From a bacterium (lineage in GTDB: Bacteria > Bacillota_I > Bacilli_A > RF39 > UBA660): 64,000 nucleotides of DNA. The position numbers and the translations under genes were made by a program. Positions 56,022 through 62,702 of this stretch are shown in pieces. The stretch covers positions 31,136-95,135 of the forward strand of contig CAVIDW010000001.1 of the NCBI GenBank assembly GCA_963641945.1, written 5' to 3'. A model generated the notes under the pieces. The model searched no databases, had not been told where the DNA came from, and saw only the letters and a program-made list of their open reading frames with translations. Every line of letters begins with the position of its first letter. Position 1 is the first letter of the stretch.

Positions 56022-57386
56022 ATGAATAATGAATTATTAAAAGAAATGAACAATAGACTTGCTTATGAATATTACAAAATAGTGGATCTTGATGAGGAAC
56101 TTCGTGAGGAATATAAAGAGGCTAAAAATGAAAGAAAATCAGTTAGGGAATTAAATGCCATAGCAGATAAAATTAATCAACTTGAATCTAAATATCGTGA
56201 GATTAAATCTGATATTAATTTATATAAAAAGGTTAATGCCAGCGCTGATAAAGTAAATATTTATAATGTTGAAGAAAAACTTATGAAGAAATATGATGTA
56301 TGTAGTGTTGAATTAAAAAATGTACCAAAAAGAATTAAAGAAGTTGAAGATAAAGAAGTTGAAGATAAAGAAGATAAAAACAAAAAATCAAAAACTACCG
56401 CTATTATAGCTGGTACAATTGCAGGAATTGAAGCCTTGACACTTGGTACTATTGCATTATCTAGTTGCAATAAAGAAGTAGTACAAGTTTCAGAAAAAGA
56501 TTCTGGAGTTAAAAATGATAGTTCTATTTCCGAAACAAAAGTAGAAGAAACTAAAAAAACATTTGTAGATGCATCAAATGATAAACAAATAAAAAATCAA
56601 GCACAATCTATATATGATAATTATGTTAATACAAATGATGCTTCTGAAGCTTTCAAATCAACTATGACTGTTGAAAAAATTTCTGATGTGCTTAGAATGG
56701 CAAATGGACAATTTAAAATGGTTGATGGAAGTGTTTCATATAATGCTGAGGATATTGATTTAATTGCAAATTATATTAATGAATATGCTAATTCAACATC
56801 TTATAAACAATATGGTACAAATTTACAATTTAAACCTATGGCTGTTTTCTTTGAACAAGATACTGATGCTTATAAAATTGTGAGCAAGGGTGATGAATTA
56901 ATGTCTAAAGTTTATGAAGACATTAAAACTGGAGATGTTGCTAAATTTAAAGAAGATTCAGTTAACTGGGGTATATTTATAAAAGATACTTTAGAAAAAA
57001 CGTCATTGGATGGAAATGTTAAGAGCATTTGGACACTTCCTGCTTCTCAACAATTCTATGTTGCTCAAGCATTAACTAGTCAATATGGATGTTCAATTAT
57101 GGAATATGGTATTGCATTGGATTTAGCTGATAGTCAAGGTAATACTCATTCAATTTGTATTCCTTACTGTTATAATGAATCTGGTTCAGTTGTTTATAAA
57201 CCATTAAGTGAATTAATTTATGATATTAATAATACACCAATGAATGATTTAGCTGCTAGAGCTGGTCATTTAAAGGAATGGCAAGAAAAAAATGAATCAA
57301 TTATGTGGGAATTAGGAAATAATGCTGAAGAATATTACAATAGTAAATATGAGCTTGAAGTTGGTTATTCAAAGAAATTAAAATAA
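56022..57386 (+). CDS. hypothetical bitopic membrane protein (N-terminal cytoplasmic coiled coil, one TM, large external domain)
   Basis: Start at the ATG at 56022, 6 nt after RBS GGGGGGA. KEVEDKEVEDKED repeat, TM TAIIAGTIAGIEALTLGTIAL. Confidence 0.5.
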   Translation: MNNELLKEMNNRLAYEYYKIVDLDEELREEYKEAKNERKSVRELNAIADKINQLESKYREIKSDINLYKKVNASADKVNIYNVEEKLMKKYDVCSVELKNVPKRIKEVEDKEVEDKEDKNKKSKTTAIIAGTIAGIEALTLGTIALSSCNKEVVQVSEKDSGVKNDSSISETKVEETKKTFVDASNDKQIKNQAQSIYDNYVNTNDASEAFKSTMTVEKISDVLRMANGQFKMVDGSVSYNAEDIDLIANYINEYANSTSYKQYGTNLQFKPMAVFFEQDTDAYKIVSKGDELMSKVYEDIKTGDVAKFKEDSVNWGIFIKDTLEKTSLDGNVKSIWTLPASQQFYVAQALTSQYGCSIMEYGIALDLADSQGNTHSICIPYCYNESGSVVYKPLSELIYDINNTPMNDLAARAGHLKEWQEKNESIMWELGNNAEEYYNSKYELEVGYSKKLK

Positions 57387-57408
57387 GTATTAAAAGGGGG
57401 AAACAATT

Positions 57409-58791
57409 ATGTATAGTAATGATAAAAGAAATGGATTTAGTATTCTAGATTTAGTGGTTAAAATTATCTTTGCTTGTTTGTTTATATTTATATTAGTTTG
57501 GTTATTTCAAAAGAAAGTTCCAAACATGACTCCATTTTACAGTAATGTATTTAGAGAAAATATAAAATATATGCAAGAAGCTGGAGAAAGCTATTTTACT
57601 GATGAGAAGATGCCTACTGAAATAGGTAACGAAGTAAAAATAACTTTAAATGATATGATTGGTAGAAAGTTAATCATTCCATTTGTTGATGAAGATGGTA
57701 ATTCTTGTAATTTATATGAATCATATGTTAGTGTTACTAAAACTGATACAGGATATAATTTAAAAACTAATTTAGTTTGTAATAATGAATCTGATTATAC
57801 TATTAAAGTATTAGGATGTCACACTTATTGTGAAGGTAAGGATTGTGCAAAAACATGTTCCATAGAAAAAATAACTAAATATCAATTTAAGAAATTAGTT
57901 ACTGGAACTAAGACTAAATATAGTTGTGAATCTGGTTATGCATTAAATGGTAAATATTGTTATAAAACCGTTTTAGATGATACAAAGTCTGCTGAAGTTA
58001 AGAAAACTACTACTAAGACATTAATTGTAGATGCCAAAAAAGTAATAGAAAGTGGTAAGAAAGAGTTATTAACCACTCGTACTGAAACTAAGTATGATGA
58101 TGTTGAACCAATTCGCGCTACTACTAAGACTGTTAAAGAAAGTTATACTTATGATTGCAGTTCAACAAAAACTGAAAAGAAATGTACTACATCATATATT
58201 ACAGAAAGTTATAGTTGTAATTGTTCAACACATACCGTTAATCATAAACAAGTAGTTACTTGTGATACATGTACTAGTACAATTCCTGTTGAAACTTGTG
58301 AAAATGTTGAAGTTAGCGTTCCTAAAACATGTACAGGAACTAGAGATAAAGTTGTAGATGTTCCTGCTAGTTGTCCTAGTGGAACTGATAAACAAACTGG
58401 ATCAGGAGATACATTAAAATGCTATAAGAGTAGAACAGTTTACTTATGTCCAAGTGGTTCTAATTATAGTGAAGGAAGTGGAAAAGACTTGAAATGTTAT
58501 AAAGTTACAGATGGTTCTTTCCATTATGAATGTGATGATAAGTCATATACATTAAGTGGTGATAAATGTACTAAAACTGTTAATGAAGAATCTACTGAAT
58601 ATTCTTGTGATTCTGGATATAAATTAGAAGAAACTATTTGTAAGAAATATAAAACAGATAAAGTTAAAGCTAAAAGTAAAAAAATAACTACTAAATATTA
58701 TAAATATACATGGAGTGAAAAAGAAACTTTATCTGGATGGACAAAAACGGGTAAAACTAAAACTGTTGATGGAAAAGAGAAATGTGAATAA
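57409..58791 (+). CDS. cysteine-rich secreted/anchored repeat protein with type IV pilin-like N-terminus
   Basis: 460 aa. N-terminus MYSNDKRNG/FSILDLVVKIIFACLFIFILV resembles a class III (prepilin) signal, but Asp replaces Glu at +5. More than 40 Cys in repeated C.SGY.L....C.K modules. Confidence 0.5.
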   Translation: MYSNDKRNGFSILDLVVKIIFACLFIFILVWLFQKKVPNMTPFYSNVFRENIKYMQEAGESYFTDEKMPTEIGNEVKITLNDMIGRKLIIPFVDEDGNSCNLYESYVSVTKTDTGYNLKTNLVCNNESDYTIKVLGCHTYCEGKDCAKTCSIEKITKYQFKKLVTGTKTKYSCESGYALNGKYCYKTVLDDTKSAEVKKTTTKTLIVDAKKVIESGKKELLTTRTETKYDDVEPIRATTKTVKESYTYDCSSTKTEKKCTTSYITESYSCNCSTHTVNHKQVVTCDTCTSTIPVETCENVEVSVPKTCTGTRDKVVDVPASCPSGTDKQTGSGDTLKCYKSRTVYLCPSGSNYSEGSGKDLKCYKVTDGSFHYECDDKSYTLSGDKCTKTVNEESTEYSCDSGYKLEETICKKYKTDKVKAKSKKITTKYYKYTWSEKETLSGWTKTGKTKTVDGKEKCE

Positions 58792-61038: not shown

Positions 61039-61097
61039 AATACTAGTCTTTTTTTTTAATACGTGATATAATTTCATTATAATAGGAGTTGGTTAGT

Positions 61098-62702
61098 TTG
61101 ATAATAAAAAAACCATATGCTTTTTTGATAAAAAACTTTAGAATCATTCATGGTTTTCTTTTTGCTATGGTTTTATATCTATCAATTAAATCTTTTAATA
61201 TATATACATTTTTCAGTGAGTATGTAACTAATCACTTTTTTGTGTCATCTGATTCTTTGGCATCGTCATACATAAATTACTTTATGTTTGGTGCTTCATT
61301 ATTGACTATACTTGTTGGGGCTTTAATATATTATTTGTTATCGTTAAAGAATAAATCAAGAAAAGAATATATGTATATTTGTATATATTATTCTATAATA
61401 TTTGTATATTTTATATTTATGTTTTCTGTATTTCAGAAACTTCAATATTCTACGATAGATATAGAAACAGTAAGAGCATATAGAGATATATCTGTTATGG
61501 CTTTATTGCCACAGTTGGTTTTTTTGTTTATAACACTTGGTAGAACTTTAGGATTTAATATTAAACAATTTGATTTTAAGAAGGATTTAGAGGGTTTAGA
61601 CATTGATTCTAGTGATTCAGAGGAAGTTGAGTTAACTCTTAGTTCTAATAGTTATAAATATGCTAGAAGTGCTAGAAAAGCATTTAGACTATTAAAATAT
61701 TTTATTCTTGAAAATAAGTTTTTTGTAATAGTATTTTCTTCAATTATAGCATTAGTTGTTTCTCTTACAATATTTATGAAAATCAATGTATATCAGGCAA
61801 CTTATGCTCAACAGCAATTAATTTTAGCTAATTCTATTTGGTATCAAGTAAATGATGTTTACATTACTAATATTAATATGTCTAATAAAGTTATATTTGA
61901 TGATAAGTATTTTGTTTTAGTAAAGGTTAATGCCAAAAATAAATTAAATAAAGAGATAACTTTAACCAGAGATACTTTTAGATTAAAACTTGATGATGAA
62001 TTAATAATACCTAATTTTAACTATTCTGTGGAATTTTTAGATATTGGAGAAACTTTTGTTCCAGTAACACTAGAACCTGGAGAAGATAAAGATTTTGTTG
62101 TTGTTTTTCAAGTTGAAGAGTCTAAATTGGCTATTGATTATATATTTAGAATTAAGAATTTTGAAAGTGGTACAATTGGTCAAATTGATTCCCCTTATAA
62201 AGATATTGTTATAAAACCCGTTACTTTAAATGGTAATGAAGATGTTGGCACTTATAAAATACCTAATGATATAGTTTTAGATAAGACATTACTAAAAAAT
62301 ACTAAATTGAGTATTAAATCTTATGAAATCTCTAATATATTTAGAGAATATTATAAATATGATTTTGGCGGTGTGACTCAAACTGGAACATATATTGTTA
62401 AACCTCAATCTACTAGTAGTGGAAGCAAAAGTGTTCTTAAGATAACTGGTACGATGGAAGTTGATAGTTCTGCTGGATTAGATCGTTATATCAAAATACC
62501 TTCTGATTTATATAAGTATTATGGCATTATTAAATATAGTAGTTATGGTAATGTTAAATCAACTTATTTAACGCCAATTAAAGTTGATTATTATGATGAT
62601 GAGTATTCTTATTTTGAAGTTCCTTCTGATATGGAAAATGCTAATAAGATACAGTTATTTCTATTAATAAGAGGCTATAGATATACAATTAACTTAAAAT
62701 AG
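61098..62702 (+). CDS. hypothetical polytopic membrane protein with large extracytoplasmic C-terminal domain
   Basis: About 535 aa from the TTG at 61098, 9 nt after a GGAG. 5-6 TM helices, then a beta-rich domain. Confidence 0.5.
   Translation: MIIKKPYAFLIKNFRIIHGFLFAMVLYLSIKSFNIYTFFSEYVTNHFFVSSDSLASSYINYFMFGASLLTILVGALIYYLLSLKNKSRKEYMYICIYYSIIFVYFIFMFSVFQKLQYSTIDIETVRAYRDISVMALLPQLVFLFITLGRTLGFNIKQFDFKKDLEGLDIDSSDSEEVELTLSSNSYKYARSARKAFRLLKYFILENKFFVIVFSSIIALVVSLTIFMKINVYQATYAQQQLILANSIWYQVNDVYITNINMSNKVIFDDKYFVLVKVNAKNKLNKEITLTRDTFRLKLDDELIIPNFNYSVEFLDIGETFVPVTLEPGEDKDFVVVFQVEESKLAIDYIFRIKNFESGTIGQIDSPYKDIVIKPVTLNGNEDVGTYKIPNDIVLDKTLLKNTKLSIKSYEISNIFREYYKYDFGGVTQTGTYIVKPQSTSSGSKSVLKITGTMEVDSSAGLDRYIKIPSDLYKYYGIIKYSSYGNVKSTYLTPIKVDYYDDEYSYFEVPSDMENANKIQLFLLIRGYRYTINLK

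What the first reader, a model, noticed from the sequence alone, without database searches (positions are those of the whole stretch)
56022..62702. Six-gene cell-envelope cluster: Cys-rich pilin-like protein, CPHC (DsbA-like) thioredoxin, LysM protein and novel membrane proteins
The co-directional genes have short gaps. The 460-aa protein has a prepilin-like leader (basic 9-mer ending in Gly, then FSILD plus a hydrophobic helix) and more than 40 cysteines in repeated C.SGY.L...C.K modules. Immediately downstream is a membrane-anchored thioredoxin with the DsbA-type CPHC active site, a plausible dedicated oxidase for it. A tandem-LysM protein and a large polytopic protein complete the set. Two tandem promoters precede the cluster, and a tRNA-Cys follows it. 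This looks like an uncharacterised surface-structure or secreted-adhesin module with its own disulfide-forming enzyme.
Basis: partly seen in the sequence, partly recalled or inferred. Interest (0 to 1): 0.6.

Follow-up and report, generated by a model that had tools for sequence, protein, structure and literature searches.

The report
Disulfide-rich surface protein operon, not a pilin
This is a real, strongly promoted six-gene cell-envelope operon of uncultured gut Bacilli whose cysteine-rich protein is an ordinary membrane-anchored surface stalk, not a pilin, and it sits next to a thioredoxin that probably forms its disulfide bonds.

Summary
The six co-directional genes, the CPHC thioredoxin, the tandem-LysM protein, the polytopic protein, the promoters and the tRNA-Cys are all present. 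The cysteine-rich protein has 26 cysteines, not more than 40.

The prepilin reading fails:
- The glycine at -1 is Arg, Asn or Val in about 40% of close orthologues, and the pilin-like motif occurs in only 2 of 247 distant relatives.
- The residue at +5 is Asp, not Glu.
- The N_methyl model misses this protein but hits true prepilins in related genomes.
- Foldseek finds no significant pilin match.

The thioredoxin has a plain ~100-residue thioredoxin fold with a DsbA-type CxxC motif, not a DsbA fold.

The core is a conserved pair. One partner is a coiled-coil bitopic protein. The other is an N-terminally anchored protein with a conserved membrane-proximal domain and a long disulfide-stapled beta-ribbon. 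The anchored protein's N-terminal domain defines an unnamed family of at least 946 clusters at 50% identity. All members examined come from uncultured Bacilli, and in all sampled loci the pair follows a consensus sigma-A promoter.

About 96% of family members have an odd number of extracytoplasmic cysteines, which suggests an intermolecular disulfide or a free thiol. The thioredoxin, LysM and remaining genes are additions specific to this clade. The function remains inferred.

The parts
55861..55889 (+). Distal sigma-A-like promoter (TTGATT-17-TG-TATAAT, 10/12)
   Evidence: A second near-consensus promoter at the equivalent place is seen in 7 of 30 related loci. The evidence is weak.
55964..55992 (+). 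Proximal sigma-A promoter, perfect TTGACA-17-TATAAT with extended -10 TG; about 25-nt leader to g1
   Evidence: A perfect 12/12 match with TG is conserved upstream of g1 in 28 of 30 related loci. A match with at most 1 mismatch lies 30-60 nt upstream of the homologous gene pair in all six distant loci. It is one of only 4 perfect matches in the 64-kb window and the only one with TG.
56022..57386 (+). g1: 454-aa bitopic membrane protein. It has a cytoplasmic coiled-coil N-terminus (~125 aa), one Gly/Ala-rich TM segment (~130-148) and a ~300-aa ectodomain with an invariant C381-x3-C385.
   Evidence: It is the fastest-evolving gene of the cluster (mean 26% identity). A profile of its orthologues hits the partner gene next to distant g2 homologues (L036 E=1.6e-12, L039 E=1.2e-6), and those partners are linked to one another by BLASTP. 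It has no Pfam, NCBIfam or PDB hit.
57409..58791 (+). g2: 460-aa N-terminally anchored, cysteine-rich protein (26 Cys, 25 of them outside). It has a TM helix at 12-34, a conserved alpha/beta domain at 41-135, a Cys triad/tetrad at 137-150, a long beta-hairpin ribbon at 150-459 with CxSGYxL / CPSG hairpin modules, and a conserved C-terminal YKWS...GW..TG motif.
   Evidence: AF2 models are (pLDDT 81). The family was defined. Its Cys content is 5.7%, against 1.1% for the other window ORFs.
58863..59525 (+). g3: 220-aa membrane-tethered thioredoxin. It has a Lys-rich cytoplasmic N-terminus, a TM segment at 69-87, and an outward-facing ~100-aa thioredoxin fold with C135PHC138 and a Pro (in the ..GAVPY.. 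stretch) that aligns with the conserved Pro of PDB thioredoxins.
   Evidence: Pfam Thioredoxin scores 23.3 bits against a cut-off of 23.5, with no DSBA or Redoxin hit. Weak hits to TrbB and PedC/BrcD fall far below their cut-offs. PDB thioredoxins match at E=2e-5. Orthologues all keep a CxxC motif: mostly CPHC, also CPYC, CPNC, CSHC, CGHC, CHYC and CGYC.
59586..60680 (+). g4: 364-aa protein with an N-terminal anchor and a beta-rich ectodomain carrying three conserved extracytoplasmic cysteines (C83, C97, C269)
   Evidence: There is no hit in Pfam, NCBIfam, PHROGs, PADLOC or PDB.
60718..61038 (+). g5: 106-aa protein with two LysM domains and no signal peptide or TM segment. It is the most conserved gene of the cluster (mean 75% identity).
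   Evidence: In L001 and L006 the gene is split by a 3.3-kb serine-recombinase element.
61089..62702 (+). g6: ~535-aa polytopic membrane protein (at least 4 TM segments) with a ~300-aa beta-rich ectodomain that is DUF4352-like
   Evidence: PF11611 is recorded for several orthologues. 322 homologues were found, confined to the same clade.
62815..62888 (+). tRNA-Cys (GCA), with its own promoter-like site at 62776-62804
   Evidence: A tRNA-Cys lies about 30-115 nt after g6 in 13 of 14 related loci.
62933..62963 (+). Intrinsic-terminator-like hairpin followed by a T run. It is the only one predicted in 55000-64000.
   Evidence: A weaker 5-bp hairpin plus T run directly follows the g6 stop codon (read from the sequence).

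Best explanation
A strong vegetative (sigma-A) promoter drives an operon for envelope proteins of a walled, small-genome gut bacterium from the Mycoplasmatales-related uncultured Bacilli.

The conserved core is a pair of genes.
- g1 is a bitopic protein with a cytoplasmic coiled coil and a helical ectodomain.
- g2 is held in the membrane by an uncleaved N-terminal signal anchor. It displays a conserved membrane-proximal domain and then a long beta-hairpin ribbon in which each hairpin is closed by a disulfide.

g2 is therefore a rigid, disulfide-stapled surface stalk, or a major envelope component. It is not a type IV pilin.

In this clade a membrane-tethered, outward-facing thioredoxin (g3) has been recruited immediately downstream. 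Its CxxC dipeptide is of the oxidase or isomerase type. It most likely forms or shuffles the roughly 12 intramolecular disulfides of g2 and the few in g1 and g4.

The conserved odd cysteine of g2 is proposed to make an intermolecular disulfide, either g2-g2 or g2-g4. The LysM protein (g5), g4 and the polytopic g6 are wall- or membrane-associated accessories specific to this clade.

Shown: gene content, conservation, promoter conservation, fold prediction, cysteine statistics. Inferred: topology, oxidase role, complex formation, surface-stalk function.
For: - Synteny of the whole cluster holds in about 30 species-level loci.
- The g2/g1 pair is adjacent, in either order, in all six distant loci L036-L041, which lack g3-g6.
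- A perfect consensus promoter with TG is conserved in 28 of 30 close loci. A match with at most 1 mismatch is present in 6 of 6 distant loci.
- The AF2 model (pLDDT 81) shows a TM helix, a small alpha/beta domain and then about 300 residues of long antiparallel hairpins.
- 25 extracytoplasmic cysteines are conserved, most as i/i+11-16 pairs flanking hairpins.
- g2 is 5.7% Cys against 1.1% for the other window ORFs.
- The thioredoxin lies directly after g2 in about 30 of 34 loci. It always has a CxxC motif with His, Tyr or Asn before the second Cys: CPHC, CGHC, CGYC, CPYC and others. Its N-terminal tail is Lys-rich and therefore cytoplasmic.
- The extracytoplasmic cysteine count is odd in 116 of 120 close members and 237 of 247 distant members.
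- g4 has three conserved ectodomain cysteines.
- A class A PBP in the window shows that the cell makes peptidoglycan, which LysM domains bind.
- Some Mycoplasmatales-related uncultured orders (RFN20, ML615J-28) are reported to lack sortases (PMC10868615). That would make TM anchoring the expected mode of surface display, but this genome's order was not determined.
Against: - No experiment or annotated homologue ties any of g1, g2, g4 or g6 to a function. Every homologue is 'hypothetical'.
- The thioredoxin is missing from the locus in L005, L011, L008 and L020, although g2 there keeps all its cysteines.
- Distant g2 homologues have no adjacent thioredoxin. g3 is therefore not obligatory in cis.
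- No DsbB, VKOR or CcdA partner was found among the window ORFs scanned against Pfam, so the source of oxidising power in an anaerobe is unknown.
- The positive-inside rule is ambiguous for g2 (KK follows the TM segment), so its topology rests on the cysteine content.
- pTM of the full model is 0.29, so the overall shape is uncertain.
- g5 lacks any export signal.
Confidence: 0.5

Rival explanations
1. One reading: g2 is a type IV pilin-like or pseudopilin subunit. A prepilin peptidase would cleave it after Gly9, and it would assemble into a surface fibre, with g3 as its dedicated DsbA.
For: - The window protein reads KRNG-FSILD followed by a hydrophobic helix.
- The predicted N-domain is a helix followed by a small beta-sheet, loosely like a pilin.
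- ComK is encoded in the window, and canonical pilins exist in related genomes. A Com or type IV pilus machinery is therefore plausible in this lineage.
Against: - The -1 residue is R in 45 of the 109 close homologues that carry the F[ST][ILVM]LD motif, and N or V in two more.
- Distant members read xFxxRD, KD or KE with no Gly. Only 2 of 247 fit the motif.
- Position +5 is Asp.
- N_methyl and TIGR prepilin models do not hit g2 but do hit true prepilins of L036 and L040.
- The predicted helix is broken at 35-40 by KKVPNM rather than being one continuous alpha1 helix.
- Foldseek places pilins at E~0.8-1 with TM 0.18-0.25.
- The 460-aa size and the beta-ribbon are unlike pilins.
Confidence: 0.03
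2. The operon, or at least g5, acts in endospore envelope assembly. It would be expressed in the mother cell and targeted to the forespore intermembrane space or coat, with g3 playing a StoA-like role.
For: - The lineage keeps sporulation genes: a SpoVT-like gene and YabG in the window, SpoIID in L008, and spoIIGA-sigE-sigG beside the g2 homologue in L036 and L037.
- g5 is a LysM protein without an export signal, as spore-coat LysM proteins are (one search gives weak SafA and SpoVID hits).
- In two species g5 is split by a small serine-recombinase element flanked by a 13-bp direct repeat. This is the architecture of the gene-intervening elements that interrupt mother-cell sporulation genes (PMC5595907).
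Against: - The operon is headed by a perfectly conserved sigma-A consensus promoter, not a sigma-E, -K, -F or -G type.
- g2, g1, g4 and g6 have no similarity to known sporulation proteins.
- g3 is a classical thioredoxin fold, not the TlpA/ResA/StoA (Redoxin) type.
- Adjacency to spoIIGA in relatives may be plain synteny.
Confidence: 0.12
3. The genes are neighbours only through inherited chromosome order. g3 would be a general-purpose extracytoplasmic oxidoreductase or reductase for the whole exported proteome, and g4-g6 would have unrelated functions.
For: - Synteny extends to the unrelated upstream P-type ATPase and g0, so conserved order alone is weak evidence.
- g3 is absent from four loci, and g3-g6 are absent from L008 and L020 and from all distant loci.
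- The genome is small and may encode few oxidoreductases.
Against: - Gaps are short, all genes share one orientation, and there is a single strong promoter with one clear terminator after the tRNA.
- g2 is by far the most cysteine-rich protein in the window, and g1 and g4 also carry conserved ectodomain cysteines.
- The thioredoxin gene always sits in the slot directly after g2 when it is present.
Confidence: 0.2

Closest known systems
MdbA (with VKOR) and sortase pilins in Actinomyces oris / Corynebacterium diphtheriae (PMC5478893, PMC9974433)
   Same: A membrane-tethered extracytoplasmic thiol-disulfide oxidoreductase with a CxxC motif is needed to fold disulfide-containing surface-fibre proteins of a monoderm bacterium.
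   Different: MdbA has a DsbA-type fold and a VKOR re-oxidant, and its substrates are sortase-assembled pilins with LPXTG motifs. Here the enzyme is a minimal thioredoxin fold, no VKOR or DsbB is seen nearby, the substrate is anchored by a TM segment and has no LPXTG, and the link rests only on gene adjacency.
BdbD/BdbC and ComGC/ComEC in Bacillus subtilis (own knowledge; Bdb enzymes are reviewed in PMC2765640)
   Same: It is a Firmicute oxidoreductase that introduces a disulfide into an N-terminally anchored envelope protein.
   Different: BdbD is DsbA-like, is paired with the DsbB-like BdbC, and is not encoded beside its substrates. ComGC is a true prepilin with one disulfide, whereas g2 has about 12 and is not a prepilin.
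SdbA of Streptococcus gordonii and partner-less DsbA-like proteins of anaerobic Firmicutes (PMC5112981, PMC12453122)
   Same: These are extracytoplasmic thioredoxin-superfamily oxidases in low-GC Gram-positives that work without a recognisable DsbB or VKOR, possibly re-oxidised by small molecules.
   Different: SdbA belongs to the AhpC/TSA-type family and is a general oxidase. g3 gave no AhpC-TSA or Redoxin hit and sits next to one outstanding candidate substrate.
TrbB (F-type conjugative pilus assembly disulfide isomerase) and PedC/BrcD (bacteriocin maturation disulfide isomerase)
   Same: These are the best NCBIfam matches to g3 (E=3.8e-6 and 1.8e-5). Both are thioredoxin-fold enzymes dedicated to a co-encoded set of disulfide-containing exported proteins.
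   Different: Scores of 27 and 25 bits are far below the family cut-offs of 132 and 120, so g3 is not a member. No conjugation or bacteriocin genes are present.
Type IV pilins / pseudopilins
   Same: Both have a short basic N-terminus followed by a hydrophobic helix, then a helix and a beta-sheet head. An acidic residue lies five positions after a Gly in the window protein.
   Different: The Gly is not conserved, the acidic residue is Asp, the HMM does not match, the helix is interrupted, the size is 460 aa with a beta-ribbon, and no significant structural match was found.
Eukaryote-type Cys-hairpin modules (cEGF PF12662, CC PF04942, Sushi PF00084)
   Same: The repeated C-x-S/P-G-Y-x-L-x(3-6)-C hairpins of distant family members reach the whole-protein cut-off for cEGF (44 and 36 bits against 26.6) and CC (34 against 20.6). 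One close homologue carries a precomputed Sushi hit.
   Different: No single cEGF repeat passes on its own (zero stretches), and the window protein itself has no hit. The resemblance is a short motif and is probably convergent.

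Membership tests
Type IV prepilin / pseudopilin | Class III signal peptide with a conserved Gly at -1 of the cleavage site | tested here: not met
   Among the 109 of 120 close homologues with the F[ST][ILVM]LD motif, the -1 residue is G in 62, R in 45, N in 1 and V in 1. Only 2 of 247 distant members fit G-[FILMV]-[ST]-x-x-[DE].
Type IV prepilin / pseudopilin | Glu at +5 and a match to the N-terminal methylation motif models (Pfam PF07963, TIGR02532) | tested here: not met
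   Position +5 is Asp14. There is no N_methyl or NCBIfam prepilin hit at E<=0.1. As a positive control, four canonical prepilins of L036 and L040 score 31-35 bits against a cut-off of 21.2.
Type IV prepilin / pseudopilin | Pilin fold: one continuous ~50-residue alpha1 helix packed on an antiparallel sheet | tested here: inconclusive
Type IV prepilin / pseudopilin | Prepilin peptidase and assembly ATPase encoded in the genome | not testable with these tools
   Only 64 kb of the genome is available. It contains ComK but no PilD/ComC, PilB or PilC among the ORFs scanned against Pfam.
DsbA family | CxxC active site (CPHC) and a cis-Pro loop | tested here: met
   C135PHC138 is present. The Pro of ..GAVPY.. 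aligns with the conserved Pro of thioredoxins. The CxxC motif is kept in all 31 orthologues.
DsbA family | Alpha-helical domain inserted in the thioredoxin fold, and a match to Pfam DSBA (PF01323) | tested here: not met
   Only about 50 residues lie between the CxxC motif and the aligned Pro. The best Pfam hits are Thioredoxin, Thioredoxin_2 and Thioredoxin_9, with no DSBA hit. PDB matches are ~105-140-aa thioredoxins.
DsbA family | A DsbB or VKOR re-oxidising partner | tested here: inconclusive
   None was found among the window ORFs scanned against Pfam or in the cluster. g0 (4 TM segments) has one non-conserved Cys. The rest of the genome could not be searched.
Thioredoxin-fold superfamily | Significant match to thioredoxin models or structures | tested here: met
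   PF00085 gives E=6.7e-5 and 23.3 bits, just under the 23.5 cut-off. PDB thioredoxins match at E=2.3e-5 to 0.05 over residues 111-216.
ResA/StoA/TlpA-CcdA reducing pathway | Redoxin/AhpC-TSA-type domain and a CcdA (DsbD-like) membrane partner | tested here: not met
   g3 gives no Redoxin or AhpC-TSA hit. No CcdA-like protein is among the window ORFs scanned against Pfam. A partner elsewhere in the genome cannot be excluded.
LysM domain proteins | Match to Pfam LysM above the cut-off | tested here: met
   g5 scores 72.6 bits against a cut-off of 20.9, in two stretches.
Sortase-anchored surface proteins | C-terminal LPXTG sorting signal followed by a hydrophobic tail | tested here: not met
   g2 ends ...TKTVDGKEKCE with no LPXTG and no C-terminal hydrophobic segment.
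DUF4352 (PF11611) | Match above the gathering score | tested here: inconclusive
   g6 scores 21.3 bits against a cut-off of 25.9. Several orthologues carry a precomputed PF11611 hit.

The most novel reading that the evidence does not exclude
The g1/g2 pair would be a previously undescribed, highly expressed envelope apparatus shared by the uncultured Mycoplasmatales-related Bacilli. In this reading, the universally conserved unpaired cysteine at the base of g2 (in the GCxxYCxxxxC triad) links subunits covalently. That would build a disulfide-polymerised surface fibre or lattice, independent of both sortase and type IV pilus machinery. In this clade a co-encoded thioredoxin and a linked tRNA-Cys would service it.
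Probability: 0.12. Interest if true: 0.75.

Novelty: new variant of a known kind. Interest (0 to 1): 0.42.

Why it matters
Exported proteins of Firmicutes are usually poor in cysteine, and oxidative folding in anaerobic Gram-positives is little understood (PMC12453122). Four features make this locus useful.

- A large, unnamed protein family (at least 946 clusters at 50% identity) is headed by a consensus promoter in every lineage sampled.
- Its members carry 5 to more than 40 extracytoplasmic cysteines. The count is almost always odd, the opposite of the even-number bias normally taken as the signature of disulfide bonding.
- In one clade a minimal thioredoxin lies next to it, giving a natural enzyme-substrate pair. 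Oxidative folding could be tested with this pair in organisms that have no DsbB or VKOR nearby.
- The family may be a major surface component, and so a candidate antigen or phage receptor, of abundant but uncultured human and animal gut bacteria.

The result also shows that a 'G-F-x-x-x-acidic plus hydrophobic helix' motif in a single sequence is not enough to call a pilin.

Tried and rejected
- Prepilin reading: rejected, as set out above.
- DsbA-fold reading of g3: rejected, because there is no helical insert and no DSBA hit.
- ResA/CcdA reading: no support.
- Phage or defence origin: PHROGs gave only LysM/endolysin-type hits for g5 and nothing for the others. PADLOC gave only two weak g3 hits over its Lys-rich tail, which I read as noise.
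- Structural relatives: Foldseek of the full g2 model against PDB and BFVD returned only the long beta-hairpins of pore-forming toxins and phage tail parts, at E>=3e-3 and TM<0.2, which is not meaningful. The N-domain gave nothing at E<=1e-3.
- Sequence searches of g1, g2, g4 and g6 against PDB found nothing.
- No homologue of g2 or g6 carries an informative name.
- Rfam found only the tRNA, so there is no riboswitch or T-box in the short leader.
- g0 (4 TM segments) as a DsbB or VKOR analogue: rejected, because it has no conserved cysteines.
- A disulfide link between g1's and g2's odd cysteines as a family-wide feature: not supported, because the distant g1-like partner checked by eye (L036) appears to have an even number of ectodomain cysteines.
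- A sigma-K-like -10 element in front of g5 was inspected by eye. It was not considered meaningful in DNA of 24% GC.

Full report
**What is there.** The window is the origin-proximal part of a chromosome with 21-30% G+C. It carries dnaA, dnaN, gyrB/A, dnaX, recR, pth, mfd, tilS, ftsH and tsaBD, with a GC-skew switch near 14-15 kb.

Downstream of a P-type ATPase and a small 4-TM protein (g0) lie six co-directional ORFs:

| Gene | Coordinates |
|---|---|
| g1 | 56022-57386 |
| g2 | 57409-58791 |
| g3 | 58863-59525 |
| g4 | 59586-60680 |
| g5 | 60718-61038 |
| g6 | 61089-62702 |

The gaps between them are 22-71 nt, and each ORF has a Shine-Dalgarno sequence. A perfect TTGACA-17-TATAAT promoter with an extended -10 TG precedes g1 at 55964-55992. 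A tRNA-Cys(GCA) follows g6 at 62815-62888, and the only clear terminator lies after the tRNA.

The Cys-rich protein has 26 cysteines, not more than 40. The thioredoxin is 'DsbA-like' only in its CPHC dipeptide.

**Where it occurs.** g2 has more than 428 close homologues in the protein database. None is named and all but one lack any Pfam domain.

A scan of one genome per species found 36 loci. All are in uncultured gut MAGs labelled Bacilli, Mollicutes, Tenericutes, Erysipelotrichaceae or 'Clostridium sp. CAG:524', with genomes of about 1.5 Mb. The record titles suggest the Mycoplasmatales-related uncultured orders discussed in PMC10868615, but I did not determine the order. The window also encodes a class A PBP, so this organism makes peptidoglycan.

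Gene order from the ATPase through g0 to g6 is kept in nearly all loci, at about 26% (g1) to 75% (g5) protein identity. The perfect promoter is conserved 12/12 with TG in 28 of 30 loci. The tRNA-Cys follows g6 in 13 of 14 loci.

**The pilin hypothesis.** The window protein does read MYSNDKRNG|FSILD followed by a hydrophobic helix. Five lines of evidence argue against a prepilin.

- The residue at -1 is G in 62, R in 45, and N or V in two, among the 109 of 120 close homologues that carry the motif. The R-containing group is a well-sampled subclade.
- I searched the 150-residue N-terminal region against 1.8 billion representative proteins. It detected 946 clusters (620 at E<=1e-10), always at the N-terminus of proteins of 280-840 aa. 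Their N-termini read SFLRDILVK, TFIRDLVVR, SFSVRDIAIQ, LLKEFIMK and similar. Only 2 of 247 fit even a relaxed G-[FILMV]-[ST]-x-x-[DE] pattern. The conserved feature is thus an amphipathic juxtamembrane segment with an acidic and a basic residue, not a peptidase site.
- Pfam N_methyl and the NCBIfam prepilin model do not hit g2. The same Pfam model scores 31-35 bits on four canonical M-x-KKGFTLVELL prepilins that lie near g2 homologues in L036 and L040.
- The AF2 model (pLDDT 81) has a TM helix at 12-35, a break at KKVPNM, a second helix at 41-62 and a small sheet.
- Foldseek against PDB gives no hit at E<=1e-3. Pilins appear only at E~0.8-1.

The N-terminus is an ordinary uncleaved signal anchor.

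**What g2 looks like.** After the conserved membrane-proximal domain (74% identity among orthologues), the model shows about 300 residues of long antiparallel hairpins. This region is more variable, at 46-56% identity. It contains a variable number of 24-25-residue 'YSCPSGxxxxGSGxSLKCYK' modules: two in the window protein and up to about seven elsewhere.

The protein ends in a conserved 'YKWS...L.GW..TG.T' motif, which the distant members inspected by eye also end with. A strict regex scored only 21 of 247 distant members, so its extent across the family is not quantified.

Twenty-five extracytoplasmic cysteines are conserved. Most form i/i+11-16 pairs that would close hairpins.

In distant members the hairpin modules reach the whole-protein cut-offs of the cEGF and CC Pfam models. 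This is a short-motif resemblance only. No significant structural neighbour exists in PDB or BFVD.

**An unexpected regularity.** The number of cysteines after the TM segment is odd in 116 of 120 close family members and 237 of 247 distant ones.

The smallest members have just five cysteines, all in the N-domain: one pair plus a GCxxYCxxxxC triad. The unpaired cysteine is therefore a family-wide feature at the base of the stalk.

In the window's clade there is an extra cysteine after the triad (C150) and a penultimate cysteine (C459). These two features co-occur across the family: both present in 104 members, both absent in 205, and discordant in 35. This suggests a clade-specific disulfide that ties the C-terminus back to the base.

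g4 also has an odd number (three) of conserved ectodomain cysteines. g1 has an invariant CxxxC.

I infer that the odd cysteine forms an intermolecular disulfide or acts as a functional free thiol. This is not shown.

**The conserved core is a gene pair.** In six distant loci (L036-L041) the g2 homologue is always adjacent to a bitopic protein of 500-1525 aa. That partner has a cytoplasmic N-terminal region, one Gly/Ala-rich TM segment and a large ectodomain.

A profile of g1 orthologues hits two of these partners (E=1.6e-12 and 1.2e-6), and the partners chain together by BLASTP. The order of the two genes differs between lineages.

None of these loci has a thioredoxin, g4, LysM or g6 homologue next to the pair. 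In L008, which belongs to the close clade, g0-g1-g2 are followed by unrelated genes; L020 likewise gave no g3-g6 hits, but its locus ends just after g2.

In all six distant loci, a sigma-A promoter with at most 1 mismatch, a 17-nt spacer and TG lies 30-60 nt upstream of the pair. Strong vegetative expression is thus a family trait. That would fit an abundant envelope component.

**The thioredoxin.** g3 has a Lys-rich N-terminal tail, which in some orthologues carries CxxC...CxxC, a zinc-ribbon-like motif. A single TM segment follows, and then a ~100-residue thioredoxin fold. By the positive-inside rule the fold faces outward.

It is not a DsbA-fold protein, because there is no helical insert and no DSBA hit. 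It is not a Redoxin/ResA type either. Its best family matches, TrbB and PedC/BrcD, both of which are dedicated disulfide isomerases, fall far below their cut-offs.

Orthologues always keep a CxxC motif, with dipeptides PH, PY, PN, SH, GH, HY or GY. From general knowledge of thioredoxin-superfamily enzymes, these dipeptides are typical of oxidases and isomerases (DsbA, PDI, DsbC, DsbG), not of reducing thioredoxins (GP).

When present, the gene sits directly after g2, in about 30 of 34 loci. It has been lost from that slot in L005 and L011.

No DsbB, VKOR or CcdA was found among the window ORFs scanned against Pfam. Partner-less DsbA-like enzymes are known in anaerobic Firmicutes (PMC12453122).

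I conclude that g3 is plausibly, but not demonstrably, the oxidase or isomerase for g2, and also for g1 and g4. It is a clade-specific addition rather than an obligatory part of the module.

**Rivals.**
- A sporulation role gets some support. The lineage keeps SpoVT-like, YabG and SpoIID genes, and spoIIGA-sigE lies beside distant homologues. g5 is a LysM protein with no export signal. In L001 and L006, g5 is split after codon ~72 by a 3.3-kb element that encodes a large serine recombinase. The 3' part of g5 is intact, and L001 has a 13-bp direct repeat at both junctions. This is the architecture of the 'gin'-type intervening elements of mother-cell genes (PMC5595907).
- Against that, the conserved sigma-A consensus promoter argues that the operon as a whole is not sporulation-specific.
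- Pure synteny without shared function cannot be excluded, but it fits poorly with the operon structure and the distribution of cysteines.

**Verdict.** The cluster is real, conserved and uncharacterised. Its headline feature, a pilin with its own DsbA, is not what is there.

It is best described as a strongly expressed envelope operon built around a new family: an N-terminally anchored, disulfide-stapled beta-ribbon protein and its bitopic partner. In this clade the operon has gained a membrane-tethered thioredoxin, a LysM protein and two further membrane proteins.

Function is inferred. The odd-cysteine rule and the enzyme-substrate adjacency are the most testable leads.

Noticed in passing
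L001 13301-16860 and L006 13123-16727 (equivalent to window g5, 60718-61038): A 3.3-kb mobile element is inserted inside the LysM gene after codon ~72 in two different species. It encodes a large serine recombinase (517 or 522 aa) plus 2-3 small ORFs. The 3' remainder of g5 is intact, and L001 has a 13-bp direct repeat (GGAGATACACTTT) at both junctions, so excision would rebuild the gene. By eye, the element's proteins look more alike between the two species than the host genes do. It resembles the 'gin'-type gene-intervening elements of sporulation genes (PMC5595907).
   Followed up: partly
window 62815-62888 and L002-L035: A lone tRNA-Cys(GCA) follows the operon that encodes the most cysteine-rich protein of the window (5.7% against 1.1% Cys; 24 of its 26 Cys codons are TGT). 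The linkage holds in 13 of 14 related loci, with a gap of only about 30-45 nt in most. I could not test whether this is a supply-demand coupling or simply the position of the genome's only tRNA-Cys.
   Followed up: partly
L036 9559-13295: Four tandem canonical type IV prepilin genes (M-x-KKGFTLVELLAVIAIL...) have cysteine-rich C-terminal domains of 280-325 aa. They lie next to sigG, sigE and spoIIGA in a 'Bacillales bacterium' MAG. They were useful as a positive control for the N_methyl model.
   Followed up: partly
window 17930-18424: A ComK-family competence regulator (PF06338, E=4.5e-45) is encoded downstream of dnaN in the origin region of this reduced genome.
   Followed up: no
window 35520-36023, 42082-42828; L008 18316-19263: Sporulation-associated genes are present: a SpoVT-like AbrB-family regulator, the YabG protease and, in a relative, a SpoIID-like protein. 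This suggests the clade forms endospores or did so recently.
   Followed up: no
window 38251-42025: Two adjacent hybrid histidine kinases (HisKA + HATPase_c + receiver, 630 and 620 aa) lie between ksgA and yabG. Those two genes are neighbours in Bacillus subtilis (from memory).
   Followed up: no
L013, L017, L019, L021, L023, L025 (g3 orthologues, about 11627-12363): In several species the cytoplasmic tail of the thioredoxin carries CREC...CD(N/K)C, a zinc-ribbon-like pair of CxxC motifs. The window protein lacks this and has a Lys-rich tail instead.
   Followed up: no
L037-L041, upstream of the g2 homologue: In distant lineages the g2/g1 pair is preceded by a small Smr-domain gene. PfkB is also nearby in four of the five loci, and a PMT-family (GT39-like) glycosyltransferase in three of the five. 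This hints that the Ser/Thr-rich stalk may be O-glycosylated.
   Followed up: no
window 55890-55935: A 14-codon ORF (MFTIKEINNLIKSS) lies between the two promoter-like sites upstream of g1. Its significance is unknown.
   Followed up: no
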